DNA of 64,000 bases. Origin: Zootoca vivipara. Its lineage: Eukaryota. Made by a program: the position numbers and the translations under genes. Position 1 is the first letter of the stretch, and each line of letters begins with the position of its first letter. Below the pieces are notes generated by a model that ran no database searches, was not told the origin of the DNA, and worked only from the letters and a program-made list of their open reading frames with translations. Shown here in pieces: positions 5,946 through 50,000 of this stretch. The stretch spans positions 82,770,001 through 82,834,000 of the forward strand of contig NC_083280.1 in assembly GCF_963506605.1 (NCBI RefSeq), read 5' to 3'.

Positions 5946-8900
5946 GTAAGAACCGTGCTTGTGCCTGTGGTGTTGTGGTTGTTTGCTTTGTGTTGCATGT
6001 TGATCTTGAACAGATTTATCTTCTTGTTCATAATACACACAGGTGAAATAGCCGAGAACTTTGTTGGAAGTGCAGTACTTGTTCTTGCACAACTAGGAGT
6101 GGTGATGCCGCACATTGTATTTGTTTGGGGGGTGGGTGGTTAGGGGAGGATCTATTTTTTAGTTCCAGGATTGTGTTGAGGCATGACTAAACTGCTTCTT
6201 GTGCAACGGAACACCATGACGGAAACCAGAGTGCACGGAAACACCGTTTACCTTCCCACCGCAGCAGTACCTATTTATCTACTTGCACTGGCGTGCTTTC
6301 AAATGGCTAGGTTGGCAGAAGCTGGCACAGAGCAACGGAAGCACACCCTGTCACGCGGATTTGAACCGCCAACCTTCTGATTGGCAAGCCCAAGAGGCTC
6401 AGTGGTTTAGACCACAGCACCACCCGCGCTATATTGTAAACCCACCCAAGAACCAAAAACATGAAGGCTTTGGACAAACTTGGTAGCAGTTGAACTATGC
6501 CCTGCTGCTTAGTGGTTCTCAAAGAGTGTTGGCCTGGTTTACGCTTTCTGAGATGCCAATGAGATGTGAAGAGTGATTCTTTTTACTTTTATGCATATAT
6601 CTTCCCCCACTGTTGTGCGCCTCACCCCTGACCCTTGCATAAGTAGTTTTTTTTAATCACATCATTCTGATAGAAATGGCAGGAACAAGGACTCTTGTTT
6701 TGCATTTAGGAGCCAAGGTCACACAGTGAGATACCTTTATTTAGAAGCAAGAACCCCTGCAACTCTTTCCAAGGTTCTCTGATGCCCGCCAGACCTTATG
6801 GCCTTGCACTTCCCTTGCTAGCCATGTGTTGTAACTGCAGGCACCTCTCAATAGGGATACAAGGTTGAGGCAGACACCACAAATGCACATGAACTGTAAT
6901 CACAGTGGCATAGATTACAGTCACAGAAGCTCAGGTTACAAGTCGGCTGAATTTTTCCAGTGGAAGAGGGTCTTAAATACAATCCATCAAACACAAATAT
7001 GTCTTACAAAAAATGGTGGTCCTTATTTCATGGTTTCCACCTCAAGCACACCTGGTGCAATTCACAAAGCTCTTGATGAGTTGTATTGGGTGTGCTTGAG
7101 ACAACACCTGTTGTATTTGTGCTGTTGCGAGGAATTCCATTCAGGGGGTTGAATAATAGTGAGACTGGAGAAGCCAGTGTAAGTTGCTTTTTCAGCTGAA
7201 TTTGGAGTAACCACTTGAAGCATCTGTTGTGTTGAGCTATTTCAGTTGCTTTGGTTTGATTTGCTCATTGCAAACAGCTGAAAGTATGTAAATTTTGATA
7301 ATCTGCTTTGCAATGGGGGTTGAATAATTTTGATTGCAACTGTAGTTCCAGATTTGCCAGATTTGTGATGAGGGTTGTCTTGGAAATGATGGTTCCACTG
7401 TATATGTCATGAGGGAATGCCAAATCATATAAAAGTGGCTGCCAGGTCTATTCCTTGTCGAAATCTCAGATTATGCATAACTTGCTCCATTACAGTATAG
7501 CTATATTTCAGAGTGAATGGTACCAAGCATCCAGTGTAAGATTTTGAGCTGTTTCCCAATGAGTTGCAATTACTTTCCATGCTGCCAAGATCATACATAA
7601 AGTCAGTTCTTTTGACAATATATTTTCATTGGTGTCATCAAAATATTCAGCAACATTAAATTTGGACAACAAACAGTAGTTTCTTCGATAATACTCTTAT
7701 CAAAATTAAATTCCAAAAGTCTTGCACCAACTGACATGCCCAACATAAATGATACGTACAAAGTTTATTGCAATCCCCCCCCCAAAATTAGGTGATATAG
7801 AAGAAAGCATTTTTGATATGTGCAGAGGAATACAGTACCATCTGTGTAGTACAGGTAACCCGTGATTTGTTCGGGGGTTGAATTTTGTGTCATTGCATGC
7901 AATGGAGTGTGTATAAGCCTGCCATGCCCCCTTTTCCTGCTACCTCTGGGTTCACAGCAATGCATGCATGGTCATGCATGGTTAGAACCTCCACAAAACA
8001 GTTGTTGCCTGTAATTTAAAGGAGTTTTCCCTAAGAAAACTGGAAACATATTTTAAGGGTCATGATTCCCAAAGTTTATTCCTTGGGAAGAATTTGTATG
8101 CCAATATCAACTGTTTTGCCCAAACCTGGAAGGAGTTTGGCCTTACCACCAACCCAGTGAAGACCAACATCTTGAGTCAGGACATCACTAGTATTCCACA
8201 CATCAGCATTGGTGACCACATGCTTGAGGTGGTAGACAGCTTTGCCTACCTGGGTTCCACCATAACCAGCAATATTTCTATCGATGCTGAGCTGGAAAAG
8301 TGTATTGTCAAGGTAGCTATGGCAAGGGCCCACCTCCACAGAAGGGTATGGGAGTATGTGATGCTAATGTCCAATACGAACATGAAGGTCTACCAAGCCT
8401 GCATGTTGGGCCCATTGCTTTATGAAAGTGAGTCATGGGCAACTTGCAACTATCAAGAGAGATGCCTCGATGCCTTCCACATCTGCATCAGGAGGACTTT
8501 CGGTAGCATATGACAGGATAGAATGCCAAACAAAGATGTTTCCCAAGTCCATATTCCCAGCATGTTCGCACTACTGTCTCAGCAATGTCTATGGTGGCTT
8601 TGCCATGTCCACATAATGGAAGATGGCAGGATTCCCAAGGATGTGCTCTATGGGGAGCTGGCTTCAGTCACCACACCAATTGGCAGACCATCTCTGTGTT
8701 ACACAGATGTCTGCCAATGTGACACAAAGGCTAGCAACATCAACCCTACCGTGGGGGAATCTCTTGCAGATGACCGAAGTGCCTGGAGACAGGCAGTCAA
8801 ATTGTGTATTCCTAGCAATGACGAGGAGAAATGACCGCTGGGGGAGGAGAAGAAACACAGTGGTACACCTGCATCAGCACAACCAGACATCTTCATCTGC

Positions 8901-11900
8901 CCCAGCTACAACAAAACGTCTCTCCCACATCAGTCTCTATACCTACAGCAGGCGCTGCAACTGCCAACAGTTTTTTATTGGAGGCTGCCAAGTTGGGGGA
9001 CACTGCACTCTTTGTCCCCAGCCACCATATCTATATCTACTCTTTTCATCCCCAAAGTTCATGGACTTTGTGTGTATAGTACATTGGACACAACACTATG
9101 TTGATAAGACACATCCCAGTTAGATGAGTGAGCCTACTTTGGTGGCTAGAGTAGAAACTGGCTACCTGGAAGCAAGCCTGAAAAAGTGACCCACATACTG
9201 ATTGGTTCTCAGGGCTGAGTGTGGAAGCAAAAATTGAGTTGTGAAACATTTATTTAAGCTGACAAAACAAGCTGCACTTGGCAGCAGTTGTAATAAATAT
9301 GTTATGACAAATCCAGTTTGTCTGAAAAGAGGCACGTTACCGAAAGGTGGGGGAATAATTTAGAAAATGGAGCTTCGGTCTCCAGGCCCAAGTGTGTTGG
9401 AAGGAATTTGATTGGCTGGAGCGAAGGATGGAAATGCTGTGGCATGAAACAGTCAGTCAGGTGGAAAAAAGAAGATGGAGCTTAAAGCCCAGGTCACTTC
9501 CTTCACACTGAAGTGAGCTGTCAGATGAAATAAAAAGCCTTTTAGCATTCAGCTAGAAATGTCCTCTGTAAGGAAAGGGATGAGTGTTGCAAATCTTCCC
9601 CATCCCCTGAAGCTAGAGGGCTACTTGAAGCATATGCCAAGTCACACTTGACAATGCTAGGAAACCTTTTGTGGTAATGAAAAACACAGGCTCCCTCTTA
9701 AATTGAGCAGGGAGAAGCTGTTTCTGGGGGACATCTTAATGAAGAGAAGGGCTCTGGGACTTACTTCAGAATTTCCTCCCATGGAAAAGGCAGAATTTGA
9801 ATCCCTTTGGCTCTGGTTTGTTTGTTTTATTGCTTTTGTCGCCATTGGCGCTTCAGCTTGTTCCATAAAGCTCCAGTTGTCAGCATTTGCTTTTTTAATA
9901 ATCCCCAAATAGCCTAGGATTAAGTACAAAATCGATGTAAGAGGAATAGGTAGCTGAAGACAGGATACTGTGCCCAGAGAGTAGGCCCTAAGATTTTATT
10001 CTTTTGTCATAAGAAATTCTACCGCTCTGTTATTTTTATAATCATTCAGATGGCACTCAGTGGTGTTCAAGCTTATCTCCAAAGCTACATGGCCTAGAAA
10101 CTTGACTTTCTCAATACAGTGGTACCTCTACTTACGAATTTAATGCGTTCCGAACGCACATTCGTAAGTCGAAAAAAATTGCAAGTCGAATCCCATAGGA
10201 ATGCATTGGGAGAAAAAATTCGTAAGTCGAAGCAACCCTATCTAAAAATTCGTAGGTAGAAAAAATCCTATCTAAACGGCATCCAAGATGGCGGACGGAG
10301 CTCCATTCGTAAGTAGAGTTATTCGTAAGTAGAGTTATTCGTAAGTAGAGTTACCACTGTATGTTGTGTTTAGATAACTGATTTTAGGGGATAACAAATC
10401 AACAAAACCAATTGTTTGTGGAAGCATTGTGGATAGCATCCCAAATGTGTGCACTTGACCACAAGTCTGTCTTCATTGCAGCTATGCATGGCCCTGGCAA
10501 ATTTATCAGTCTTTTCCGTTGGATTAGCTTGTTCACTTACTCATCTTTTCTGGCAAACAGATTGCTTGATGTTTTTTTTTTTTAAAAAAATGCTATTGTC
10601 TAACCCCCTAATTCTGTGCTTGTTTGTGTTTGGCAACAGGTACAACGGGTAAACCATCATCACCACCCCCTGCAGTCATTGATGTGAGGCAGATGAATGA
10701 GAAACTGGAGACCATTTTGTTTCAGCTCCGCCAGGTTACCCGTGAGAGGGATGAGTTGAGGAAGCGTCTCGCACTGTCGTCTCCTGGTTCAACCTTTGAT
10801 GACTGCAGGTAAAAGACTGACACGAGGGCATATTCCCAGGTCTAATGCATGTGCAATTGGGCATGGGTCTTTGGCTCTTTTCCATGGCACAGCTGTTTAA
10901 GTTGGGGAGGGGCAGTTAAGGATGCCTAGGATGGCTCAGTCAGAGAGCATGAGACGCTTAATCTCAGGGTTGTGGGTTACAGCCCTATGCTTGGCAAAAG
11001 ATTCCTGAATTGCAGGGGGTTGAACTAGATGATCCAGTCTTTGTTAGCTAGTGATGTTATCTTTGCAAATTACTTACACCACCAGTGGCCAACTCTGTCC
11101 CATGTGGGTACAGAGTATGCTTAATGCATCATTTTTGTTTCATATAACCTTTGGGGGGTGCATGTTTTCTTTCACCTTAATACTTAAAATGTTTGATGTG
11201 TATTCATGTGAATCTTGTGTTAAGGTCATGCTCAGCTGAAATCTATCTTTGTGGTAGGCCTAGCCCCAAGCCAAACCATGATTATGAAAGGCTGAAGATT
11301 CAGTGCATGAAGGCAATGTCCGATCTGCAGTCTCTACAGAACCAACACACCAAAACGCTAAAAAGATGTGAAGAATCTGCTAAGGAGGCTGATTTCTATC
11401 AGTAAGTAAAGGCACACGGTATATGCACAGGGATGTATTTTGGTTTCCTCCTGCCATTACTATGTGTCAGTTAAGCTGCCTTAGATTTTAATGTTCAAAG
11501 GTCCTTCATCATAGTTTTCTTATCTCCAGCTTCAGTCAACTTTTAAAATGCCATTATTTTAACATCAGTAGAGAGATAATGTTCAAAGCTTTTGGCTGCA
11601 GATTTAGGATTGGTTTAAAAAAAAAATCTTTGAAGATGGAGAGCCAGTTTCTGAAAATTATGGTGGGGAGTATAGGCTTAGCTTGGTGTGGATGACCTTC
11701 TCACTTCAGTGAATTGATAATACTTGTCCCCTGCTTCCCCCTTTCAGAACCCTGCTTTCAGTAGTTCCAGGGTGGAGTCCAGTGCAGTAAATGACACTGC
11801 TAAGGAGAATTCTCTTAAAGGCAACTAGACATCAACAAAATGCACCACACCAAGCAACAGTGCAAAATCTGGTGGTTTCTAATGGTGGATATTTCTTAAT

Positions 11901-32600: not shown

Positions 32601-35600
32601 GTGGGAACATAAATCATCCAAGTCTAAGAACATTGAACAGCCAGAAGGCCCATGTACCCCAGCATCCTGTTCTCACAGTGGTTATGCAGATACTGGTAGG
32701 AAACCTGTGTCTGATACCTAATTTGCAGTTTGTAGGAGTTGAGCATAGTGAATACCACATGATAGTATTGCTTTGAGGCAGCCTGGCATTTATCTTTATT
32801 GAATGTCAGCCAGCCAAATTGTTGACCCACTCCTAGCTTTTGCATGGTTGATATGCCATACTTTCATTGCAGATAAATGGCATTGCACTAGATAATAAAT
32901 CACTGACTGAATGTGAAGCTTTGCTGCGAAACTGCAGGGAATCACTTACGCTTTCATTGATGAAGGTGAGTGTTGAAGGCGGTGGGAGGTAAAAGGGAGT
33001 AAAGGACACACCTTCCATTTTAAAACATGGGCTTACTTGCATCTACTGCATAGCTGTTAAAAATACTGCCTAACAAGCTGCAAATTATACCAGCAGGAAG
33101 AAGAGGGCAGAGCACAACAAGATGCTGCAATCTTAGCATTCTGCTGAGAGCATGTTCTTTTTTATTTCTCCACCTAGGTTTTTCCTCAGAGCTCAAGCTC
33201 ATCTTGGAGTGGTCAAAACATATTTGAAAACCTCAAGGATTCAGAGAAAATATCAAACTGCAGGGTCCATGCATCGGAGGTGCAGGCTCAGAATAAAAGA
33301 AACTTAAAACACAACAGCTCAACCCAAACAGACATTTTCAATCCAGACATAATGGACACCAAGAAGGATCAGAATGATCAGGACAGCAACTTATACTGCG
33401 ATCTCAAACCATTCTCCAACACGGTTTTGCACACAGAGTCTCACCAGAGTGCAGTCCATGGGTGCCACAGTACCTCTGAACACAGCCTAGGCTCCTTTAG
33501 TCCAGATGTGTTTCGGGAACCAAGCTATGGCATTGTTGGTCTGGACAGCAGGAGACTGCCTTTTGAGTCCACAGTAGCAGACTGCATGGTGATTGAGAGT
33601 GTGTTGGACAAAGGGCATGGTGAGAAGCACAGCGGTGGCACTTGGCCCAAGATAATGGTCAACATTACTGCTGCAGAAACAGAAAAATTCTCTGTGTACA
33701 AAAAGCCAAAACAACGGAAGTCCATTTTTGATCCGGACACTTTCAAGAGGCCTCTGACTCCTCCTAAGATGGACTACTTGTCGCCCAGTCAGGTGTTGGG
33801 ACATTCACCCCAGCCCTCCAAAACGGAAACCATTTCCACCCCTCCCACCCCTCCCAAGAGAAGCGATTCTATTAAGTTCAAACACAAACAGCAAGCAAGT
33901 TCCACCTCGGACTCCACCGCCATGACCGGCTCGCCACCATCCAGTCCTGCCACAGCTCAGCCTCCTGTGTCCATTGAACTCAAGCCAGATTGTGGTATTC
34001 ATAAGGGGCGAGGTAGACCTTCTGGACATTATTACAGGGAAGAGGGGGTTGACACTGCACATTTGCCTTCAAGGAAATCCTATGAAGATGACATTGGTTT
34101 TCAAAGAATGGAAGAGCCCAAAATTAAAAGGCCAAGGCCCAAGTCTGCTCCTGCCTTGAGACATAAACTAACCCCTGTGCCTATTCCTAATCCACCTCAT
34201 CAGGTAGATACGAGAATGTGAAGTGTGGGTCCTGGCACATATTTTCCAAAGTGATTTATTTGTGTGGTGTACCTTTTCTGCATCAAGGCAAAGAGCAAAA
34301 GAAAAGGGTTAACTGGTTGTCCTACGTGTATGCTTAAGATCCCAGGAATTGGAAGTTGAAATGAAGTGGAACATTTGTGGGGCAGTTACACACATGGTAG
34401 TTGCCTTTACTAGGAAGCAAAACCCCATAATGCAGAAGTGGCCCATTAGCAACCTGTAGTCAAGATCCAACCCTAAGGCAGTTTACATTTGAGCCCTTGG
34501 TTGAACTTCCAATTTGTAATCAGATTATGATAGATTAACTCACAGTTCCACTTGTAGGGTGGGATTCATCAAGCTGTAAAGAGAAGCTGTTCTCCATTTT
34601 GATATTACGTCTTGCATGTAAATATGAAATTGTATACAGTGGTGCCTCGCTAGACGAATGCCCTGTTAGACAAATTTTCCGCTATACGAATAGGTTTTGC
34701 AATCAGAGGTTGCCTCGCAAGATGACGAGGTTTTCTATGGCCGCCGCATCGTCTTGCAAAGCGTGGCCATAAAAACCTCCGATCACAAAACCTACATTTG
34801 TCTAGTGATAGGGGCATTTGTCTAGTGAAAGGGGAACCAGCTGTAGCAAGGGAAGAAGGCAAAGGAAGATCAGCTGTCAGCGCCTCTCAGCTGATTTTTC
34901 TTTGCCTTTTTCCCGCGCTGCAGCTGGTTCCCCTTTGTGTTCCGCTGGTCTCTGCCGATGAGGGTCAACCAGCAGAACACAAAGGGCTGTAGCGCGGGAA
35001 GAAGGGGGGGGAGAAGTGGAGGAACGGATCCGTTCCTCCACTTCTCCCCCCCGCCGCCATGCCACGGACACCCAGGAGCATCGGACAGTGTTTCGGAGAA
35101 GCACTGCGCCTCTCTGAAGCCCCGTCTGATGTTGGCTTTGTGCCAGGCAGCGGGAGAAGCGGTTCCTCCGTTTCTCCCGCCGCAGCCTGTGACACAGCTG
35201 TTTGCCTCAGCAGCCGCCGCCTGACAAGCAGAGGAACCGCTTCTCCCCGCCGCCTGGCACAAAGCTGGCATGGGACGGGGCTTGCCGGCTCTGTCAGGCG
35301 GGGGTGAGGGAAAGCGGAGGATCGCCCCCGCCTCGCCCGACAGAGCTGGCATTTGTTGGTGCTGCGGGGGGCTTTTCGCCGCCTGCTTTCCCCTTGGCTT
35401 GGGGAAGGCAGGCGGCGAAACACCCCGCTTTCTCCCGCTCACCTCAGCGGCGGGCTTTCTCTTGCTCGCCCTCAGGCCGACCCGGGATCGGCCGTATCAG
35501 CGCCGATCTGTTACCTCCATGGATGTGGACAGGCTGCTTGGATGAGTGAAACCGACCACCTGTCTCTTTGATCCTTGCCCATCCTGGCTCCTAAAAGCGA

Positions 35601-37961
35601 GCCAGAAAGGGCTGGGTGATGGGCTCCACGGGGTGGTGAATGCTTCCCTCTGTGAGGGAGCCTTCCCAGACCTGCTGAAAGAGGCGGTTATTAAATCGCT
35701 TCTTAAAAAAACATATTCGGACCCCACCAATATGGCCAACTATTGGTCAGTCTCAAATCTTCCATTCTTGGGCAAGGTGATTGAGCAGGTGGTTGCGCAA
35801 CTCCAGGCATGCCTGGAGGGTGCAGACCATTTGGATCCCTTCCAATCAGGATTCAGGCCTCACCATAGGACTGAAACTGCCTTGGTCGCGCTGGTTGATG
35901 ATCTCCGGCGGGCTAGGGACAAAGGTGAAAGCTGTTTGCTAGTTCTTCTGGATCTCTCAGCGGTCTTTGATACCATCGACCACAACATCCTTCTGGACCG
36001 GCTAGAGGGGCTGAGAGCTGGGGGCACTGTTATACAGTGGTTCTGCTCCTTCCACCTGGGCTGTGTTCAGAAAGTGGTATTGGGGATAAGTGTTCTAATT
36101 CCTGGGTTCTCGCTTGTGGGGTGCCTCAGGGTTCCGTCCTCTCCCCCATGCTTTTTAATATCTATATGAAGCTGCTGGGAGAGATCATCAGGGGGTTGGG
36201 GCTGGGTGTTCATCAGTTTGCAGATGATACCCAGCTCTACCTCTCTTTCAAATCAGAACCAGTGAAGGCGGTGAAGGTCCTGTGTGAGTGTCTGGAGGTG
36301 GTTGGAGGATGGATGGCGGTTAATGGATTGAGGTTGAATCCTGACAAGACAGAAGTACTGTTTTGGGGGGATTGGGTGGGTGGGTATTGAAGGACTCCCT
36401 GGTCCTGAATGGGTTAACTGTGCCCCTGCAGGACCAGGTGCGCAGCCCGGGAGTCATTTTGGATTCACAGCTGTCCATGGAGGTGCAGGTTAATTCTGTG
36501 TCCAGGGCAGCTGTCTACCAGCTCCATCTGGTATGCAGGCTGAGACCCTACCTGCCCGCAGACTGTCACTAACAGACTTACCATACCCATTAGCCAATCA
36601 CCCATTCCTTCCCCCCTGCCCCCATTATATATAAGGGTCTGATGACTTCTGTTTCAGTGTATCTGAAGAAGTGTGCATGCATACAAAAGCTTATACCTGA
36701 AACTACTCAGTTGGTCTCTAAGGTGCTACATTATCATTTTTAATTTTTTTGGAAGGATTCTTTTAAAGACTTCCTTAGATCATATAACTTTCTTGACGAC
36801 TTGATTCTTTTAAGGGAATTTTTAGGTTTTTAAGAAGAGTCTTTTTAACTATCTTTTTAAAGAACTGTTTTAATTTATTTTGACTATGGCAGACCAACAT
36901 GGCTACCTACTTGAATCTCAGTTAGATATCTTTTGTGCAACAAAATATGCTGGGCCACTGTTTGGAGAACAGTATAACCCCTCTGTGAATCTAGATGTTG
37001 GTCATCCCTGCCATGCTGGATACCAGAATAATGACTTTGAGTTGAAAGTGTGTGTGATACTAAACTTTCCCCACAGGTACAAAAATACACTCCAGCAAGT
37101 GAAGAGCATCTTTCTCCTGAGCTGCAAGAATGGCCAATGTATTCACCAAAACAGTCTGGTAGGCACAGTGATGGGTTTGTCCCTACCTCTTTATACCCTG
37201 GAAGCCTGTCATCAGGTTAGTAACAACATACAAACTGTGTGTTGAATTGAAATCTTGAATCCTTGGTATGCAGAGGCACTATCATTTATGTAGTTACGGG
37301 ATGCATTTTTTTATTATTGTTGAATGAACCTTCAGCACTTAATTAATGTACTGTTCTACAACCTATAGGTACGGTACCAAGAAACATTGCACCATGTCCT
37401 GCAGTAACAGCTGTTATGAGAAATCCTGTTTACACTGCTTGGAGCCATAGAGTTAACACCAGCAATTGCCCTTCTGTTGCCAGCCAATATTGTTATCAGC
37501 ATCTGCATCCCAGGTATGTAAAAGAAAAAAGAACCTTTGCTGGATCTAACTGAAAGTCTAGCTGTTCTTCTATTCTGCTTTCAGCAGTGTCCAAGCACAA
37601 GTGTCGGTGCTGACCTTTAAAGCCCTAAATGGCCTCGGCCCAGTATACCTGAAGGATTGTTTCCACCCCCAGCTGAGATCCAGCTCCGAGGGCCTTCTGG
37701 CCATTCCCTCACTGTGAGAAGTGAGGTTATAGGGAACCAGGCAGAGGGCTTTCTTGGTAGTGGTGCCCGCTTGGTGGAACGCGCTCCCATTAGATGTCAA
37801 GGAAATAAACTATCTGACTTTTAGAAGACATCTGAAGGCAACCCTGTATCGGGAAGTTTTTAATGTTTGACCTTTTATCGTGTTTTTAATACTCTGTTGG
37901 GAGCCGCCCACAGTAGCTGGGGAAACCCAGCCAGATAGACAGGGTATAAATAATAATAATA

Positions 37962-38011
<50 letters not shown>

Positions 38012-41000
38012 ATTATTATTATTATGGCACATGAAGGCTACCATTTTGTCTCCATTTATTTCCCCACTAGCAAATCGGTGAATCGTCTCCATTCTGCCAT
38101 TGTGTTATGAACACTTTCATATGTCAGGATTGTGTCTTAACCACACATAGTGGGTGATTGGTGATTCTGAACCAGTAACACACAGTTTTTCTATGTGTTG
38201 TAGTGCTCAACACCAGGGCCGTCTGAGTTTGGACCTTAGTCACAAGCACTCTAGTGAGTGTTCTGACAACTCACGCACAAGGTCATCGCATGGTTCAAAT
38301 TCACTGCCTTCTAGTGCAAGACTTGGTAAGTGGCATTTCAGATTGGGCAATGCAGGCCATTTCTTTCCTTCCTAAGTCTGTGCAATTGAGGAAAAAATAT
38401 TCGGTTTTCTATCTAGCTGTTGCTGCAAGATTCAGACTCTGTTCTCTGTCTTTGGTCACTCAGAGACAGCCTTTCAAGGCCTAGGGATTCTCATTTGATG
38501 GTCCAGCAGTAGTCTGACATCATCGTTTTGTCCCATCACCCTTGATAACGCTCTTCCATTGTCTTCAGGTCTTGATGAAAGTGCTCTCCCTGTTCATCAC
38601 TGACTGCCCCAAGGTTTTTGGGGAATTGATCTAGGTGACTGTTCAGGAAATGGAACTTCAAACTCATATTGCACCCAAGATTGTGGAAAGCCAAGAACTT
38701 TTTTTAAACTACAACCTCATAGCGGTCTGCTTTTTTGTTGCCAAGGAAGTTTTTGGTAACTGCCACGAAAGACTGCCACGCTTTCTTCTCTTTGCCATTC
38801 ATCTTCCTGACAAATTCCTCATCTCGAATAAGGGCACGAATTTGAAGTCCATCGAACACACCTGCTTTGATCTTCTTGAAAGACATGGTGGGGAAAGCTG
38901 CAACTATATGTTGAATATATTTACCTTCAGTATTTAATGCCTTCACAAACTGTTTCATTAACCCATCTTTATGGTTGACTGTGACATGGAAGGAGGAATT
39001 CTGGATTTGATTCTGAGATGGGTTTAAAAGAATTACTTTGGAGTTTGAAAAGTGACATAGGAGGTAAGGATGAGATCTTGCAGATTTATTATAACGAATC
39101 AGGATGTCATAAGCCAATATTTACTTCAAGGCTGAACATATAGCTGTCCGTATTTGACATAGGAGACATGAAAAAAGATGGCTTGATGAAACAGTTTGCG
39201 AAGGCATTAAATACTGAAGGAAAATGTTTTCAAATACAAGTGCTAATTCTTACCTGAATAACAGCAGCTGGTCTATACTGTATTCCAAGGGAATACATTT
39301 TTTTTTGCATACCTTCAGCTGTACATAGATATACATGTCATTTGCAATGCTATACACGTCATGTTCAATGCTATATAAGTCACTTACATTTATAATCATA
39401 TTGTACTACTTTGGCTCTGTGTTTAATAAAATATTGAATTCTTGCATTGCGAAAAACGAAGATTATAGTGAAAAGTGAAAAACACGAATTGCAAAAAAAA
39501 CAAACACCTAGAGCTTACAGAACAAAACCAAATTCAGCTATGAAATCAGCATGTTGAAATTAGGTTAGAACAACTGCAGGTGTCAATGCAACAAAAATTT
39601 TGTTCCCCAGTGACGGTGGTTCACTCACTGCAAGAAGCAAAGCTACAGGGAACCAGGCAGAGGGCCTTCTCAGTAGTGGCACCCGCCCTGTGGAATGCCC
39701 TCCCATCAGATGTCAAAGAGATAAACAACTACTTGATGTTTAGAAAACATCTGAAGGCAGCCCGGTTTAGGGAAGTTTTTAATGTGTGACATTTTAATGT
39801 ATTTTAATCTTTGTTGGAAGCCACCCAGAGTGGCTGGGGAAACCTAGCCGGATGGGCGGGATACAAATAATAAATTATTTATTTAAGAAAAGATGTCCCC
39901 CGTGTGATTGATATATCTCCATTTAACTACCAGAGGATGCAGTTAGATTTTTCTCTGTAATAATAAAGCTTGTTCCAGAGGACCACTTTATATTGCTACA
40001 GCAGAAATCTTGCAGATCTCTTGTGGAATTCAGGGCCTAAAGGAGTTTATCTTATCTTCTTAATCCTGACTCCTTTTCCTTTTCCTTTTAAAGTAGGTTC
40101 TTCCAGCAACTTGCAATATAGGACAGAACGAATAAAAATACCATGGACGCCAAGATACCCGAGGTCCGTCATTGGCTCCGATAGGGGTAATTTATTTATT
40201 TATATCATTTCTTTCTTGGGAATTACTACATGAATGGAGAGTTCTGCGTTCCAACTAGTAGATTTTTGTCAATGTTTAGAGCAGGGAACCCTCCCACCTT
40301 TGGTGGGCCCCCTGGGCTCACATTTGGAAATCTTGGAAACTGGCATGGGCACCACAACATAGCCATTTTGTAGAAAAAAAACACAATAATTGGATGAGAA
40401 AAGCCTCCTCCCCGAAGCACCAGGTAAAACACCCATGCATGCCCCCTTAACAAATACAACACAGGCACAAAGGGAGGTGACCCCCAAATTAAAAAAACAA
40501 ACAAACCAGACCCTAATTTATTTATTTATTTTTAATTGAGAGGGTTAGGAAGGGGGGCTCAAGGGGGAGTCTGAAGGTACCACGGTGCACATTGGGCAGT
40601 CCATGTTTTGAGCAAGGACATGCCCCCATCCCATATATCTAATGCATGGATATTAAAAACGTTCTCTCTACCCCCTCAACCTCTCAGTGTTAGTATGAAC
40701 CCACCCCACCCCCCCCAAAAAAATTCATTGGAGCATTTATTATTTTATTTTAAATTTATTCATTTGGTTTTTCAGATAATAATTTTACAGTCACATGTAC
40801 AACATAGAAACAAGATTCCAGAGAATCTCCTGGACTTCCCTCCTCCCCTTTGTGGGTCCTATTGTTAATCATTTACTCCTGCATCTTTTTATGATAATCC
40901 AAATCTTTTACCTCTCCATTGTGACCAAAATTCATCTTTAAACTACAAGTGGTATTCCAATCCTATTAACTGTTTACAATGGTATTTAAGACGAGTTAAA

Positions 41001-44000
41001 AAATTTCCCCATTTCCCATCATATCCTAGTGGTGGGGTAGTCTTTAAATGGCGCACATACTTTAACATTTAGGTGTTGTTGTTGGAAGCCCACTATTAAA
41101 ACACTTGGAAGCCAATGTAAAGTAACGGTGTGACTTCCCCGATAACTTTTGCAACACATCCAACTGCCATGGCTGCTCCTGTACTGTTCTATACAGGTTC
41201 ACTGTCTCATTCCGAATGTAGCAGCCCCAGCCTGGTAACCCCACCGCAGTCACCGCTTAACCTGGAGACCTCATCCTTCGCCAGTAGCCAGTCACAGAAC
41301 TCGCTTTCCACCTTGCCCAGGATCTCAGTGAGCCCAGTATCTGTAGGGCAACGTCGAAAAGACAAGTAAGTTATTCTGTAAATGTCTTAGGTAGGGCTAG
41401 TTAAAATAGTGGTTAAATGTATAAATGGGGAAAAAATAGCAAGAGAAATGGGGGAAATGTGCTAAGCACAGACACTGCAGCCTTCTAGACCAGTAGCATT
41501 CAGCCTCTTTTCAAGCTGGGACTTGCCTTTGACCCCAGTCTGCAAAATTTGACTGATTGTCTCCCACCCCACCCCATCCCAGTCCCTACTATCTATGATA
41601 CCTTTCTGCTCCTCTTTTCCATGTCCCCTGGCTGTCCTTGTGCCCGCAATCTTTCTGCTTTGCATTCTTTTTTCTTAAAAAACTGAGAAAAGTGGCAAAG
41701 GTGTGGGTTGGACCCCTGGTGCAGCCCACATTAGGGTGGCCAAGATGTTGAGGGCCAATGTTCCAGAGAACAGTCCCTCCCAGTCCCTCCCAGGACTGAA
41801 CAGTCCCTCCCAGTCCCTCCCAGGACTGAAGAAGTGTGCATGCACACGAAAGCTCATACCAAAATAAAAACTTAGTTGGTCTTTAAGGTGCTACTGAAGG
41901 AATTTTTTTTATTTTTCCTCCCAGAAAAGTTACAGGTGCCAGGTCACATGGATGTCCCCATTCTGGTAGCAAACACAACAAGGAATATGTTAACAGTTTA
42001 CATAGGTTTGCTTCATGATTGCGCTTGAATTGACTGTTCCATTTTGGAGATTCTTTCACTTAACAGCACATGGCCAGTATGATGAGCCAAGGCATGCGCC
42101 TAAATGGAGAGAAGAGAGAGAATTGCAGGGGGAGGGGGCTGCTTCTGAATGAAGACATATGTGTGTGCGACCTTTAATTCTTGCAGGGTTGAACAGCATG
42201 TGAAGAAGCTTCACTCTTGTGCTGTAGAAAAGAAGGACCGCAACCAGGGCATTCCTGCCTTTATTGCGGTCAAAGGATAGGGTGACCAGTGATCCATGCA
42301 TAATCCATTGCAAATAAAACAATTTCTGGGTAGCGGAAGGGTGAATGGCAGTAGTACAATCTGAACTGTGATGACACCCCTTTCTGTGACACATGAAACA
42401 AAAAGGTCTGGCAACTCTGAATCATAGAGTTGGAAGAGACCACAAGGGCCATCCAGTCCAACCCCCTGCCAAGCAGGAAACACCATCAAAGCATTCCTGA
42501 CAGATGGCTGTCAAGCCTCTGCTTAAAGACCTCCAAAGAAGGAGACTCCACCACACTCCTTGGCAGCAAATTCCACTGTCGAACAGCTCTTACTGTCAGG
42601 AAGTTCTTAATGTTTAGGTGGAATCTTCTTTCTTGTAGTTTGAATCCATTGCTCCGTGTCCACTTCTCTGGAGCAGCAGAAAACAACCTTTCTCCCTCCT
42701 CTATATGGCATCCTTTAATATATTTGAACATGGCTATCATATCACCCCTTAACCTTCTCTTCTCCAGGCTAAACATGCCCAGCTCCCTAAGCCGTTCCTC
42801 ATAGGGCATCGTTTCCAGGCCTTCGACCATTTTGGTTGCCCTTCTCTGGACACGTTCCAGCTTGTCAGTATTCTTCTTGAACTGTGGTGCCCAGAACTGG
42901 ACACAGTACTCCAGGTGAGGTCTGACCAGACCAGAATACAGTGGTACTATTATATCCCTAGATCTAGATGCTATACTCCTGTTGATGCAGCCCAGAATTG
43001 CATTGGCTTTTTGAGCTGCTGCATCACACTGTTGACTCATGTCAAGATGTGATCTACCAAGACTCCTAGATCCTTTTCACATGTACTGCTCTCAAGCCAA
43101 GGTGTCACCCATCCTGTATTTGTGCCTTTCATTTTTTATTTTTTATTTGCCCAAGTGTAGTACTTTACATTTTTCCCTGTTAAAATTCATCTTGTTTGCT
43201 TTGGCCCAGTTGTCTAATCTGTTACGGTCATTTTGAAGTGTGATCCGGTCCTCTGGGGTATTAACCACCCCTCCCAATTTGGTGTCATCTGCAAACTTGA
43301 TCAGGATGCCCTCAAGCCCATCATCCAAGTTGTTTATAAAGATTTTGAATAAGACTGGGCCCAAGACAGAACCCTGTGGCACCCCACTAGTCACTTCTCT
43401 CCAGGATGAAGAGGAGCCATTGATGAGCACCCTTTGGGTTCGGTCAGTCAGCCAGTTACAAATCCATTGAATGGTAGCATTGTCTAGCCCACATTTTACT
43501 AGCTCCTTTACAAGAATATCATGGTGCATCTTGTCAAAGGCCTTGCTGAAATCAAGATCCACAGCGTTCCCTTCATCTACCAGGCTTGTGACTCTCTCAA
43601 AAAATGAGATCAGATTAGTCTGACATGACCTATTTTTCAGAAACCCATGCTGACTTTTAGTGATCACAGCATTCCTTTCTAGGTGCTCACAGACCGTTTG
43701 CTTAATGATCTGCTTTATAATCTTTCCTGGTATTTATGTCAGGCTGACTGGGCGGTAATTGTTTGGGTCCTCCCTTTCCCCCTTTTTGAATATAGGGACA
43801 GCATTTGCTCTCCTCCAGTCTGCTGGGACTTCGCCTGTTCGCCAGGAATTCTCAAAGATAACTGCCAGTGGTTCTGAAATCACCTCTGCCAGTTCTTTTA
43901 ATACTCTTGGATGTAGTTCATCTGGCCCTGGAGACTTGAATACATCTAAACTAGCCAAGTCTTCTTGTACTACCTCCTTACTTGTTCTGGGCTAGGTTTC

Positions 44001-47000
44001 TCCTGCTGAATCATCTGCTCCAAATTCTTCAGGTCGGGCATTGTTTTCTTTTTTGTTGAAGACTGAGGCAAAGAAGGCATTGAGGAGTTCTGCCCTTTCT
44101 TTGTCCCCTGTTTGCATTTCACCATCTTCTCCTCTAAGTGACCCCACTGTTTCCTTGTTCTTCCTTTTGTTACGGACATACCCATAAAAGCCCTTTTTGT
44201 TGCTTTTAACCTCTCTAGCAAGCCTGAGTTCGTTCTGTGCTTTAGCTTTTCTGACTTTGTCTCTACACGTGCTGGCTATTTGTTTGAATTCCTCTCTGGT
44301 GGTTTCCCCCTTTTTTCCATTTTTTGTACATATCCCTTTTAAATCTTAACTCATTTAAAAGTTCTTTAGATAGCCACCCTGGCTTCTTTAGGCACCTTCC
44401 ATATTTCCGTCTCATTGGTATTGCCTGAAGTTGTTCTTTTAATGTTTCCCTTTTAACAAACTATCTGCCCCATCCTTTCTGCTTGAGGGATAAGTATGAT
44501 AAGATGTTAGTGTTGTGGTGAGTATATATATATATTCTGTACTTAAGGTTAAGCAGGTGCTATGTAAACTCATGGCAGTTTCACAGACTCCCAAAGGAGC
44601 TGACTGCATCTGAGCAAAGCTTTTCCAGAGAATATGAAAGATTCTTACATGACAAAATTCGGAATCACAGAGACTCGCCTGTCATCACACTGAGCAAAGG
44701 CAGTGATGTCCCTTTCTATGCATGACCAAATCTGTGAAGCTCCCATTCAGAGCATTGAAAGGCGCATGGAGGGACAGAAGTAGCTTACAGATTGGTGGAT
44801 TTTTGGAGCATATTCATTAATCTGTGAATGGGTTGGCTGGTCGTCTTCCCCAGCTCCCCAACCCCCCAATAATAATGGAGGAAGGTGCCATATATACCAA
44901 GGGCTGGGTCGTACATGAGGCTAGAGCGTTTGGGGCTGCCAATGGACTCTCATCCAGACCAACTGACTGTAGTAGAGGCTTCTATCACCGGTCACAAGAG
45001 TATTATCATCATCATTCATTGCAGCCCTGTCTGCTACTCTCACAAAAATAATACTTTGGAAATAACGTTTATAAAGCACACCCCTCTTTTTTCATTTTGT
45101 TTGCCAAAAAAGAACCTATGCAAAGACTGTTTTGCCCAGAAACCAGGCCAGGTCTGGCTTCTCTGGCTTGCGCAGCTCATGCATGTGTTTATCGTGTACT
45201 CTATTCACTATGTTTATTCTTCGTACAAGAGTGCCCACAAGAGTACAAGTGCCTTGGAGCTGATATCAGGAGTCCGTGGTTAATCTTGCACCTTGGCGCG
45301 AAGGGGGAATTGGAGTAGAAAGCCAAACAATTTGCTGGGAGCTGTCACCCAACCACCCACTGAGTGGACACTTCCCTGTGCAAACAGCAAGATGGCTGAG
45401 AAAGCTGCGGCTTCCTTCCCTACCAATAATGGAAGTTTAGCCCAGGGTTTTGCATGCCTGAAACTACCCAAAGTCAAGAGGTTGGGGGCCTTGGTGCCAT
45501 ATGCAGGTGAACGGAGCATGCATCGCAGCCCTAGCAGTTGTCAGTCCAACAGTTGACACAAACCAGGGTTGAGCTGCGTTTGGTAGGAAATTGGTACCAG
45601 GGCTTGACTTGCACTTTTCATGGGGCTTGATTTCTGGTCTCAATTTAGTCTCTGTTGTTACTATCTCTCTTTCTAAGTGTTTCTTCTTCTCTTTTCTGCA
45701 CCCCTCTGCATCTTTCAGATATTTGTTCCGTAATAGGTCTTTTCTGAGAATCCCTGTGGCTCCTAGGCCAAGGTTCTGTTCACTAAGGAGTTTGAGGTTG
45801 GCTTGATATAAAGGTTGTCCTTCTCAAGCAGTATTTGCGCACCTTCCCTGTGCTATTTACATGTTTGGATAATTCCCCCCAAAGGAAAAGTTGCATGGTA
45901 ATTGCAATCCTACCATGCAAGCTGCCATTTTTAATGGCTTGACCATTTTTAATGGTTTTTTTTTTACAGCTGCTTAATTTTCATTGACTAATGTTGTGTT
46001 CCCTGCATACAAATATTAAATATTGGTATTGTGCTTTCCTTGTTCTTGCCTTCCCATGTTATATTTATGTTTGTTGCCTCTTAAGGATCTCACATTTCTT
46101 TGTAAATTGGCGTAAGGCTTCCTTCTGAAACATTTTCTAAAATGCATATTATATATGTTCGCTTACCTATATATAATATGGATAAAGATGTGTTTTGTTT
46201 CAAACTCATCATTTAATTTCTACTTTTTGTGTTTTAATTTTCTCCCCTCCCTTTTTGTTCTTATCTCTAAATGCATTTAAAATGTTCGTTTTAATTGATT
46301 TGGCCACCATACATTGCATGATGGTGTTAAGGGAATGCTGCTGCTTGCAGCATTTCTGTTTTTAAGGCGGTCTTCTGCTTTTAAGGGTTAGGGTGGGAAT
46401 GAGTAGTGCATGTCTTTAATGTAATTTGTTCCGTTTTGTGTGGGGTGTCCATGGTTTGATGGTTCCTCCTCCTCATTTCCTCTCGAAGGCCTTATATGGA
46501 AGAACCGCGGCATGTCAAAGTGCAGAAGGGCTCAGAGCCACTAGGAATCTCCATCGTATGTGGTGAAAATGGTGGGATCTTTGTCTCTAAAGTGACTGGT
46601 GGCAGCATCGCCCATCAGGCTGGACTTGAATATGGTGACCAGTTACTGGAGGTAAAGGTTTTCTGACCTTTGTAAGCTGACCAATGCTATTTTTACACCA
46701 GGGGCAGCTTGCTCCGAATGGTTTAGATGCTGGCATTTACAAATTGCCAATTTTATTTGCGGATCAACTTGCTTTCATAAACAGAATGGATATCACAATA
46801 TACTTAGTGTGTTGCTATTTCTACATTAGCCTGAAATTGCCACCTACAAACACAGGAAATGAGCCAACCTGGGGAAAACAGGGATTTGGGTCTGTATCAC
46901 CCATTGGAGGAGCTGCAACCCGCTCTGGGTCCCCAATGAGTATTCCTGCATGTTAACACACATTTAGAAATATGCATTGCCACATTCACACATTGCACTT

Positions 47001-50000
47001 TTGAATTAAGCTGTAATGTGAGAATCCTAAAAGATTTTTTTGGGGGGGAGCTTCCTTTGACTTACCCTCTTGCTAAATTGTCTAGCATGTTTGCAATAAA
47101 ATTTCACTACATTGCTGTTTTGGATGCCTAAAAGAAGAGCATGGGGGTCCCACAAAGTTGTTACTCATATTGGCGTAATCCAACAGGAGGAAACAAAGCC
47201 AGTCAAATTGTCATCAGTAGTGCTCATCCTCTTTCACTCGCCTATTCAGCCTTCCAAATGTATGAGGTTGGCTACTGGATCAAACTTTTCGGCCTGGACA
47301 AATGTTCAAAGAGCACCTATTTGGATCAGAGGGATTGCCCACAAGGCTTGTGTTTCCACACACAATTGAATTTACTTAAAATTTAAAGGTTAATTAGTCT
47401 TTGGTATCCCACCAGCCTCAGAACATAGCTAATCAAATGTGAAACGCATTTACTTCCTTGTATGTGTGTTTAAAATGTTTCTTAATGTAAAAAGCTGGGT
47501 TTTTTATTTTTAAAAAAATACTATTTAGGAAAACTTTTCTATACTTTATTACAGGCACCCCCAAACTGCGGCCCTCCAGATGTTTTGGCCTACAACTCCC
47601 ATGATCCCTAGCTAGCAGGACCAGTGGTCAGGGAAGATGGGAATTGTAGTCCAAAACATCTGGAAGGCCGAAGTTTGGAGATGCCTGCCTTAGTAGGTCA
47701 GCAAATTACCCACTTACAGGTCAAATTGTCAAGATTTTATGATGGCATTGATTTTTTCTTCAAAGTGGTAATTGAATAATATAGAATCAGTTATGGCATT
47801 CCTATCCACCCTGACTTGAACTTGAATATCTTGCACTACAGATCCAATAAATCGGGGTGGGGGGATCAAATTTCAGAAAGCAATATGAAGTTAAATGGCG
47901 AAATCTATACTTATTTCATCAGCGGGAATGTGCTGCTGAGTGCATGTGTCTTCCTCCTTCTCCTCCCACAGTTTAATGGAATAAATCTGCGGAATGCTAC
48001 AGAACAGCAAGCGCGGCTCATCATCGGACAGCAGTGTGATACCATAACTATTCTAGCACAATACAACCTGCACATGTTCCAACTTGGCAATCACTCACGA
48101 TCAAGGTAAGATTGGTTAGACCTTATCCAGGTTGGCCTACGCCGTGTGAACTGATAGTTTTTGCTTTCTCGGATCAGGCATCTGGAGGTTGGCAGATAGC
48201 TGTAATTGTTAAGCTTCCTTAGTTGTGGTTTGCTATGATGTCTGAATTGAACCACTGCAAAATAGATACTCTCCCTGAGGACGACTGGTGGGAAGAGGGC
48301 ATATTGTTTTCCATGTCAACAACCCCAGGTTGAACCTCCTTATTGGGTGTAAAAACCAAGAGCCAATCACAACACTTGTCTGAAGCAGTAAAAGGGTGTG
48401 CAGGGGAATGGGATTCTTGACAGCAAATTTATATGTTACACAAGAAACACATGTATTTTTAGGTATCTCTCACCTGTTTTGGAATCCAATTAACATGAGC
48501 AGATTCCATCCCACCAGCATCCAGTACATTCTACAGAGCTGCTGCCATCTACACCAACCAACCCTTGCTTGTCCAGGTTGCCGCAGTTGTGCCTTGCTCA
48601 TTCTGGGACCAGCTGCTTTTGTCTGCTGGGGGAGAACAGCTGATCCCAGTATAAGCAAGATGCCAGTCACTGCAGCTGCTAGCCAGGACCAGGATAGATC
48701 TATATTCTATAGGCAGCAGGGGCAGCCATCCTTAAGCTTTTGGAGCAGGTTGTGGGATGAAAATCTAAGCACCCATTTGAATATCTAAATATCTGAAACT
48801 GTTCAGATATAATGCAGTTGATCAGCTTTTAATTTTTCTGGTATTCTTCTTCCTTCCTCTAACTTTAGCTCTCGGCTAGAACCCGTGAGCAGCCATTCCA
48901 CTCCACAAGGCAGCGGAGCTGCAACCCCTGACAGCCATTCCATAATTGACACTGTGAGCGAACAGGATGAAGGGACCATGACGCCTCCATCCAAGCAGAC
49001 CACCCCAACCACCAGTCCCCGCAATTCAATCAGGTAACCTGCTTCCTCATTTCACTTCATGAAGATTCTCTCTCTGTCTGCATCTTTGAGGTTGGACAGC
49101 TGCCCTATATTCTAGGCTGACTCAAGGGGAATAGGGTTGAAAGCTGAGCGCCAGATTTGAAAGCAAAGGCTCCACTTCTGCAAGGAGCTTGGTCCTTACG
49201 TTGCCCTTCTCTGGAGCCAAGCAATTTAGCACGAGGGAGTTGTTAGGAATCATTCTAAAAAAAGAAACAGAAAAGATGTGTAGTAGCTTTAAGAACTGTG
49301 TCTGGTAAGTTCCGTGTTCTGTTTGGTTGTCATGAGCGCTGATGGAACGTTCCTTTGTATACAGAGAGACAAGTCTGTCTTGATTTACGCTTGCTGTAAT
49401 AAAACCTTGTTAAAGTCTAGTCTCACTGCTTCGTGAATTATCTGTTCGTTCTCTGCCACATAAAAAGCCGCTACCCAATAGGAGTGGGAGTTCCCAGGAG
49501 GAACACTGAATTTGGATCCATGGTGGCAGTGCTATTTTTCTTGAAAAACAGGTGCTGGAACTCACCATGAATGCCTCCCTTATTCTTTTATAATGGCGGG
49601 GTGCACACCCGAGAGGTGCTGGTACTGAGTTCTGGCAAGTTCTGGCTGGGGGAAAAGCCCCGCATGGTGGAAAGGAGTCGATTCCTTCCTGCCAAATAAT
49701 GCCACAGAGAACTCAAATTGGGGCAGCTGGGACATCTTTGGGGCCTCTCTTGCTGAGAGCTAGCAAGGGAACAGGAGTTAAGGGCTGGCTGGAGCTGAGG
49801 GTATGGATGAGCAGGGTCTGATGAGGATCAGTTTGTCAAACAAGCCTTGGGTGTCTTCTCTTTGTCTCTTGCCATTGAAAGGAATTCTGTAGACACCAGC
49901 AAGAGGACACCTGAACCTAGAACAGTTACCATTAAGAAGTCCCAAGTGGAACTCGGAATCCAGATCTGTGGTGGAAACCTGCATGGTATTTTTGTGTCCG

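What the first reader, a model, noticed from the sequence alone, without database searches (positions are those of the whole stretch)
45660..46488. Hidden 26-aa Arg-rich cassette exon directly before PDZ3, with neural/muscle splicing signature
Seen: a 78-nt phase 2-2 frame-preserving exon ([26 protein letters not shown]; 7 Arg, no acidic residues). It has a long CU-rich acceptor, a weak donor (gttggc), downstream TGCATG at 45892, 46315 and 46407, an ACTAAT near 45988, and a TE-free downstream intron. Established: upstream CU tracts (PTBP1) plus downstream UGCAUG (RBFOX) mark neuron/muscle-included exons. It is absent from canonical human DLG5 as I recall. Inference: a tissue-specific basic/hydrophobic insert with RxxS sites that could alter membrane binding or PDZ3 regulation.
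Basis: partly seen in the sequence, partly recalled or inferred. Interest (0 to 1): 0.7.

Follow-up and report, generated by a model that had tools for sequence, protein, structure and literature searches.

The report
Ancient optional exon in DLG5 scaffold
The cell-polarity gene DLG5 has a 78-base exon that is spliced in or left out from sharks to mammals, and it adds a positively charged 26-residue stretch, likely a membrane-binding and kinase-controlled patch, right before the domain that binds the Hippo growth-control kinases; automatic gene models list it, but its tissues and function are untested.

Summary
The exon is real. 45719-45796 is a 78-nt, phase 2-2 cassette of DLG5 before PDZ3. 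Contigs of one run from a related species show both inclusion junctions and the skip junction. Same-species reads gave 5 skip reads and no inclusion. It is not hidden: predicted isoforms carry it in cartilaginous fish, both teleost paralogues, amphibians, reptiles, birds and mammals including placentals, with skip forms in 10 of 10 groups checked. A second amniote locus (L002) keeps the weak donor, all three UGCAUG and the ACUAAU, and synonymous change is suppressed (p=0.0017). New here: the nearest UGCAUG sits in a conserved 10-bp hairpin. The peptide has no acidic residue in 45 of 45 variants, lifts the local basic-hydrophobic score from about 0.45 to 0.58-0.89, carries near-invariant serines, and is not modelled with confidence on PDZ3. 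Tissue, regulators, function and human status are untested. Verdict: an uncharacterised member of a well-known class.

The parts
41197..41365 (+). upstream DLG5 exon, ends in phase 2
   Evidence: its last 30 nt are the loose ends at 45719 and 46489
45660..45718 (+). CU-rich polypyrimidine tract and AG acceptor of the cassette
   Evidence: 82% pyrimidine; last 60 nt 78% identical in L002; junction used in X4
45719..45796 (+). 78-nt cassette exon, 26-aa basic-hydrophobic insert
   Evidence: 73 of 78 nt identical in L002
45797..45802 (+). weak donor GTTGGC
   Evidence: used in joint 45796 to 46489; identical in L002
45797..46488 (+). 692-nt downstream intron, single-copy, conserved most in its first 270 nt; present in contigs of four related-species runs
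45891..45920 (+). 10-bp perfect hairpin (arms 45891-45900 and 45911-45920) whose 5' arm holds the proximal TGCATG at 45892-45897
   Evidence: arms identical and loop changed at 3 of 10 in L002
45987..45992 (+). ACTAAT, QKI-type or branch-point-like motif (label recalled)
   Evidence: kept in L002
46315..46320 (+). distal TGCATG 2
   Evidence: at -174 from the next acceptor, -176 in L002
46407..46412 (+). distal TGCATG 3
   Evidence: at -82, -74 in L002
46489..46651 (+). first PDZ3 exon
   Evidence: best PDB match is human DLG5 PDZ3, 1UIT, E 2.6e-27; spliced to 47972
47972..48105 (+). second PDZ3 exon
   Evidence: joint

Best explanation
45719-45796 is an alternatively spliced, frame-preserving DLG5 exon conserved across jawed vertebrates; it is likely switched on in some tissues by RBFOX- and QKI-type proteins binding the downstream intron, and it likely adds an unstructured, phosphorylation-controlled membrane-binding patch next to PDZ3. 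Shown: inclusion and skipping both occur, and the peptide and intronic motifs are conserved. Inferred: the weak donor makes skipping the default; the two distal UGCAUG and the ACUAAU promote inclusion; the proximal UGCAUG is masked by a hairpin and would raise the threshold. Inferred at protein level: the insert binds acidic lipids electrostatically, as polybasic motifs of Lgl, Numb and Miranda do, and phosphorylation of its serines would release it, changing where PDZ3 and its partners MST1/2 sit. My odds by step: real cassette 0.97; RBFOX or QKI control 0.7; neural or muscle bias 0.65; lipid binding as main job 0.5.
For: Junctions: run X4 has contigs for 41365-45719 (depth 15.2), 45796-46489 (5.9) and the skip (10.4); X21 has 5 skip reads. 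All 120 long proteins carry the insert (they were ranked on it, so this is not a frequency). Both forms occur in 10 of 10 taxon groups of listed cluster members. L002 keeps donor, three TGCATG and ACTAAT; only 23 of 418 distal intron positions start a perfectly conserved 6-mer. Synonymous differences 2 of 23 codons against 24 of 53 in the PDZ3 exon, p=0.0017. No Asp or Glu in 45 of 45 distinct peptides; S21 with hydrophobic +1 and basic +2 in 45 of 45; basic -5 and -3 in 42 of 45; S24 with F at -5 in 38 of 45 (motif labels recalled). Local basic-hydrophobic score 0.58-0.89 in 21 inclusion forms (20 above 0.6) against 0.41-0.46 in 4 skip forms (scale values recalled, threshold from PMC6960411). 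Insert pLDDT 45-49 against 83-92 for PDZ3. PDZ3 binds MST1/2 directly (PMC5238729 passages). Polybasic motifs with embedded aPKC sites regulate polarity proteins (PMC6020718 passages).
Against: No tissue label on any run, so the neural or muscle claim rests on motifs alone. No inclusion read in three same-species runs, though coverage was thin (about 1, 0 and 10 reads on the PDZ3 exon, 6% of each run read). The motif and hairpin comparison rests on two DNA sequences, with no compensatory change in the 10 stem pairs. DLG5 already has a stronger basic-hydrophobic peak in the SH3-GK region in both forms (0.95-1.05), so a second patch may be needed for something else. Placental versions score lower (0.58-0.74) and a gerbil form is only 20 aa. 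PMC6960411 itself warns that such sites are also candidates for protein binding. The mouse cortex cassette table of PMC5989265 lists two Dlg5 cassettes of 70 and 111 nt, not this one.
Confidence: 0.55

Rival explanations
1. The exon is a regulated cassette, but its peptide is a protein-docking or phospho-dependent linear motif (kinase, phosphatase or 14-3-3 site, or a partner for an acidic surface) that tunes MST1/2 or MARK3 handling by DLG5, not a lipid-binding patch.
For: Position-specific conservation beyond charge: S7 99%, P12 99%, S21 100%, L22 99%, L25 100% over 84 segments; AMPK/MARK-like pattern at S7 in 32 of 45 peptides (consensus recalled); DLG5 binds MARK3 and MST1/2 (PMC5238729); teleost b-type paralogues keep the C-terminal SLRSLR while their score drops to about 0.7.
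Against: Such short motifs match often by chance; SxIP absent in 84 of 84; the total ban on acidic residues and R-to-K swaps fit a charge-based role. The two roles are not exclusive.
Confidence: 0.3
2. The main job is at RNA level: exon, weak donor, hairpin and a slowly removed downstream intron throttle mature DLG5 mRNA, and the peptide is conserved as a by-product of nucleotide constraint.
For: Synonymous sites are strongly constrained. In X1 one contig keeps 46098-46488 yet is spliced to the next exon, and the next intron has no coverage; X2, X4 and X11 also hold intron pieces. Read-through of the donor meets a stop within 3 codons in the window and L002.
Against: Runs were picked for holding this stretch, which favours unspliced contigs. 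The early stop is absent in P0001-P0003. Amino-acid changes across 45 variants are mostly conservative and never acidic. Fully spliced inclusion exists.
Confidence: 0.1
3. The insert folds back on PDZ3 as a structured N-terminal extension and changes its ligand binding.
For: The most invariant residues lie right against PDZ3; a short helix is modelled at residues 44-47.
Against: AlphaFold2 with 42 sequences gives pLDDT under 50 along the insert. A low score is weak evidence for transient contacts.
Confidence: 0.05

Closest known systems
Predicted DLG5 isoforms in RefSeq/UniRef (e.g. Anolis sagrei XP_060625060.2, Danio rerio XP_068069013.1, Microcebus murinus XP_012617907.1)
   Same: The same exon at the same place; the squamate peptide is identical.
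   Different: Those are automatic models with no tissue, regulation or function; the intronic motifs and hairpin are not described there.
RBFOX-activated, PTBP1-repressed cassette exons of neurons and muscle (class recalled; listing only)
   Same: Weak donor, CU-rich acceptor, conserved downstream UGCAUG, frame-preserving, conserved flanks.
   Different: No binding or knockdown data; the nearest motif is predicted fully paired (unpaired probability 0.00, lowest of 46 in the window); a conserved ACUAAU suggests QKI input.
Phospho-regulated polybasic (basic-hydrophobic) motifs of Lgl, Numb and Miranda (PMC6020718, passages)
   Same: Arg-rich, hydrophobic, acid-free, low-confidence structure, serines with basic neighbours, in a polarity protein.
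   Different: Here the motif is supplied by an optional exon; lipid binding and aPKC phosphorylation are untested; DLG5 has a second, constitutive basic patch.
TDP-43-dependent DLG5 cryptic exon (10.1101/2023.02.03.527079, passages)
   Same: Alternative event in DLG5.
   Different: It lies downstream of exon 31, near the gene's end, not before PDZ3; a different event.

Membership tests
cassette (skipped) exon | both inclusion junctions and the skip junction exist in RNA | tested here: met
   X4 contigs show all three; X21 shows the skip. Inclusion was seen in a related species, not the window's own.
cassette (skipped) exon | frame preserved, no stop | tested here: met
   78 nt, phase 2-2; isoform pairs differ by exactly 26 aa
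cassette (skipped) exon | alternative status conserved across species | tested here: met
   both forms in 10 of 10 groups
RBFOX-activated exon | conserved downstream UGCAUG | tested here: met
   3 of 3 kept in L002
RBFOX-activated exon | motif accessible as single strand | tested here: inconclusive
   predicted unpaired probability in the window 0.00, 0.56 and 0.20 for the three sites
RBFOX-activated exon | inclusion high in neurons or muscle and dependent on RBFOX | not testable with these tools
   runs have no tissue labels
PTBP1-repressed exon | CU-rich elements upstream of the acceptor | tested here: met
   82% pyrimidine; a 16-nt CU-rich block is identical in L002; such tracts are common at acceptors
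PTBP1-repressed exon | inclusion rises on PTBP1 loss | not testable with these tools
   no data
SRRM3/4 neural microexon | length up to 27 nt, or 51 nt by the wider definition (recalled) | tested here: not met
   78 nt
SRRM3/4 neural microexon | conserved UGC just upstream of the acceptor (recalled) | tested here: not met
   two TGC within 25 nt in the window, none there in L002
phospho-regulated basic-hydrophobic membrane motif | BH score above 0.6 | tested here: met
   20 of 21 inclusion forms, 0 of 4 skip forms (scale recalled)
phospho-regulated basic-hydrophobic membrane motif | lies outside folded domains | tested here: met
   pLDDT 45-49; no Pfam match
phospho-regulated basic-hydrophobic membrane motif | binds acidic lipids and is released by phosphorylation | not testable with these tools
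   only sequence patterns

The most novel reading that the evidence does not exclude
A splice switch as old as jawed vertebrates, gated by an RBFOX site caged in a conserved hairpin, gives neurons or muscle a DLG5 isoform with a kinase-releasable membrane anchor beside the MST1/2-binding PDZ3, so that splicing sets where DLG5 restrains Hippo signalling; the patch has weakened in placental mammals.
Probability: 0.2. Interest if true: 0.65.

Novelty: new member of a known kind. Interest (0 to 1): 0.4.

Why it matters
DLG5 links cell polarity, synapse formation and Hippo signalling, and PDZ3 is its direct MST1/2 contact (PMC5238729); PDZ3-PDZ4 are essential in the fly (PMC4876392). The solved human PDZ3 construct is the skip form. 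An insert kept for the whole history of jawed vertebrates right at that domain implies an isoform-specific function that none of the papers I found addresses. It gives simple tests: tissue PSI, a minigene, liposome binding and a YAP reporter. The class itself (conserved regulated exons encoding disordered motifs) is common, so a specialist would find it plausible and useful, not surprising.

Tried and rejected
TDP-43 cryptic exon link: rejected, that event is after exon 31 (PMC9509890 section 9 gave no coordinates, and only 786 characters of its supplement were held). SRRM4 microexon: rejected on length and motif. EB1 SxIP motif: 0 of 84. CDKL5-type RPxS: 4 of 84. Structure hiding the splice sites: folding of exon and flanks is no better than shuffles (z -0.33 and -0.01), so only the downstream hairpin stands out (z -3.34 and -3.10, in windows chosen after seeing it). 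The hairpin arm also reads as a POU-type DNA motif (recalled); not tested, thought unlikely. No RNA holder on record was listed; the 14 'RNA?' rows were guesses and 4 were laid. The upstream exon was not inside either laid stretch; its junctions are read from 30-nt loose ends identical to 41336-41365. Human and mouse status: no human or mouse protein was listed among 70 hits or 120 of 879 hits; clusters show one representative, so this shows nothing about absence. Literature: searches (listings) found no paper on this exon; DLG5 had no hit in supplements of PMC8187152 (3 of 4 files) or PMC5630039 (23 of 27 files); PMC5989265 was searched in 12 of 15 files. Unsearched supplements and splicing databases may list it. 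PMC4166160 and PMC3992522 are not held. Passages of PMC13343711, PMC10510282, PMC4046881, PMC7815313 and PMC10020087 did not describe it. The PDZ3 codon count was out of frame and is replaced. Four gapped inserts of 120 were dropped before the column counts. Earlier scan notes: none by sequence, place or words bore on this. No complex prediction was run.

Full report
Setting. The window holds most of DLG5 on the + strand: a squamate DLG5 protein maps exon by exon from 10633 to 62221. The genome is 1.44 Gb. The peptide is identical to that of two lizards, so the source is probably a squamate (inference). The exon at 46489-46651 matches human DLG5 PDZ3, PDB 1UIT.

Observation. All coordinates hold: a 78-nt exon at 45719-45796, phase 2-2, 7 Arg and no acidic residue, an 82% pyrimidine acceptor tract, donor GTTGGC, TGCATG at 45892, 46315 and 46407, ACTAAT at 45987. 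The downstream intron has one genomic match and no repeat reads. Three TGCATG in this intron are reached by 20 of 2000 shuffles, but the window is rich in the motif (46 on +, 22 on -) and 1 of 25 other exon ends also has three within 692 nt. The count alone is only modest evidence.

Splicing evidence. In run X4 (related species, contigs, RNA by guess) one contig joins the last 30 nt of the upstream exon to 45719 (depth 15.2), one joins 45796 to 46489 across a GT..AG intron of 692 nt (5.9), and one joins the upstream exon to 46489 (10.4). Contig depths are not inclusion levels. In same-species raw reads, X21 has 5 skip reads and no depth on the cassette; X19 and X20 have about one read and none on the PDZ3 exon, with 6% of each run read. 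Inclusion in the window's own species is therefore inferred from the relative, whose exon piece has no difference. X1, X2, X4 and X11 also hold pieces of the flanking introns; one X1 contig keeps 46098-46488 but is spliced to the next exon. This hints at slow removal of the downstream intron, but these runs were chosen for holding it. No run has a tissue label.

Conservation of the peptide. A search with the exon found 29 proteins, 26 of them named DLG5 isoforms. A search with the turtle region found 879, of which 120 were listed. All 120 long proteins carry the insert: chimaera, sharks, skates, bichir, sturgeon, gar, teleost dlg5a and a second diverged teleost paralogue, coelacanth, axolotl, frog, turtles, birds, lizards, platypus, a marsupial, and dog, fox, bats, cattle, guinea pig and mouse lemur. 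Shark and lizard share 23 of 26 residues, about as many as in PDZ3 (24 of 30) and more than in the upstream linker (22 of 33); placentals share 16-18 of 26. A gerbil model has a 20-aa form. Among listed cluster members both forms occur in 10 of 10 groups, often within one species. So the exon is old, alternative throughout, and already in automatic gene models. Human and mouse were not seen either way; the 1UIT construct is the skip form.

Conservation of the RNA signals. One metagenome contig, L002, holds the orthologous locus of a non-squamate amniote (type inferred from its peptide). The exon is 73 of 78 identical, the downstream intron 65%, against 51-54% for control intron stretches under the same global alignment. 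Donor, all three TGCATG and the ACTAAT are kept at matching offsets, although only 23 of 418 distal positions start a perfectly conserved 6-mer (for the second site the aligner placed a gap inside the motif, but both sequences have it intact). Synonymous differences are 2 of 23 codons in the cassette and 24 of 53 in the PDZ3 exon (p=0.0017).

The proximal TGCATG is the 5' arm of a perfect 10-bp hairpin, 45891-45920. The arms are identical in L002 and 3 of 10 loop bases differ. The local fold beats shuffles in both (z -3.34, -3.10, windows chosen after the fact). It is the least accessible of the 46 TGCATG in the window, and perfect 10-bp stems with short loops start at only 49 of 63940 positions. 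A variant in X1 falls in the loop, and the read-through frames P0001-P0003 keep the residues that correspond to both arms (indirect). No compensatory change is seen. RBFOX binds single-stranded UGCAUG (recalled), so this site would be masked.

The peptide. AlphaFold2 on 42 sequences gives PDZ3 pLDDT 83-92 and the insert 45-49; Pfam has no match. None of 45 distinct peptides has Asp or Glu; only 2 of 570 windows of the skip-form linker are acid-free with six or more Arg/Lys. With a recalled BH scale and the 0.6 threshold of PMC6960411 (passages), inclusion gives 0.58-0.89 and skipping 0.41-0.46; in most non-placental forms this is the second-highest peak after a constant one in the SH3-GK region. 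S7, S21 and S24 are 96-100% conserved and fit basophilic kinase patterns (labels recalled, low specificity).

Mechanism. Shown: alternative splicing and conservation at protein and RNA level. Inferred: default skipping through the weak donor, activation through distal UGCAUG and ACUAAU, probably in neurons or muscle; the insert as a phospho-regulated basic-hydrophobic patch like those of Lgl, Numb and Miranda (PMC6020718 passages), next to the PDZ3 that binds MST1/2 (PMC5238729 passages) and, with PDZ4, is needed for apical localisation in the fly (PMC4876392 passages). Rivals are a protein-docking motif (0.3), an RNA-level throttle (0.1) and a fold-back on PDZ3 (0.05).

Novelty. Ten literature searches found no study of this exon. 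The known TDP-43 event in DLG5 lies after exon 31. A mouse cortex cassette table lists two other Dlg5 cassettes. It is a new, uncharacterised member of a familiar class, already present in sequence databases. Interest 0.4.

Noticed in passing
window 45891-45920; L002 1716-1745: Conserved perfect hairpin that pairs the proximal TGCATG; arms fixed, loop variable.
   Followed up: yes
window 45797-46488: Contigs of four related-species runs hold pieces of this intron; one is spliced at the next intron, hinting at slow removal or retention.
   Followed up: partly
window 45777-45779 (codon 20 of the insert): Cys in lizards and in some teleost dlg5a (zebrafish, characins) where most vertebrates have Ser; looks convergent.
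   Followed up: no
P0168, before PDZ3: Gerbil model has a 20-aa form lacking the first six residues; placentals replace the N-terminal basic residues with His.
   Followed up: partly
L002 1584-1586: Arg in place of the 99% conserved Pro12; may be a contig error or a lineage variant.
   Followed up: no
window about 40093-40194 and other DLG5 exons: Further isoform differences in gene models: a 31-aa segment absent in one Anolis isoform, a one-residue shift at the same acceptor, a 23-aa segment near the N-terminus shared by lizards and bats, and a 31-aa segment near PDZ2.
   Followed up: no
window 53664-53900: The strongest basic-hydrophobic peak of DLG5 (about 1.0 in all 25 proteins scored) lies in the SH3-GK region and is constitutive.
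   Followed up: partly
window 47550-47690: Short inverted-repeat, MITE-like element that draws over 13,000 reads per same-species RNA run from other copies.
   Followed up: no
window 42486-44345 (-), 35546-36572 (+), 56992-57732 (-): Broken reverse-transcriptase frames of LINE-type retroelements in DLG5 introns; CR1-like for the first (resemblance recalled).
   Followed up: no
window 7894-7975 and 10846-11304: Other TGCATG clusters (four in 82 nt; three after the exon ending near 10809); the motif is about twice as common on the sense strand, 46 against 22.
   Followed up: no
window 41768-41830: 30-nt tandem repeat, 2.1 copies, in the intron upstream of the cassette.
   Followed up: no
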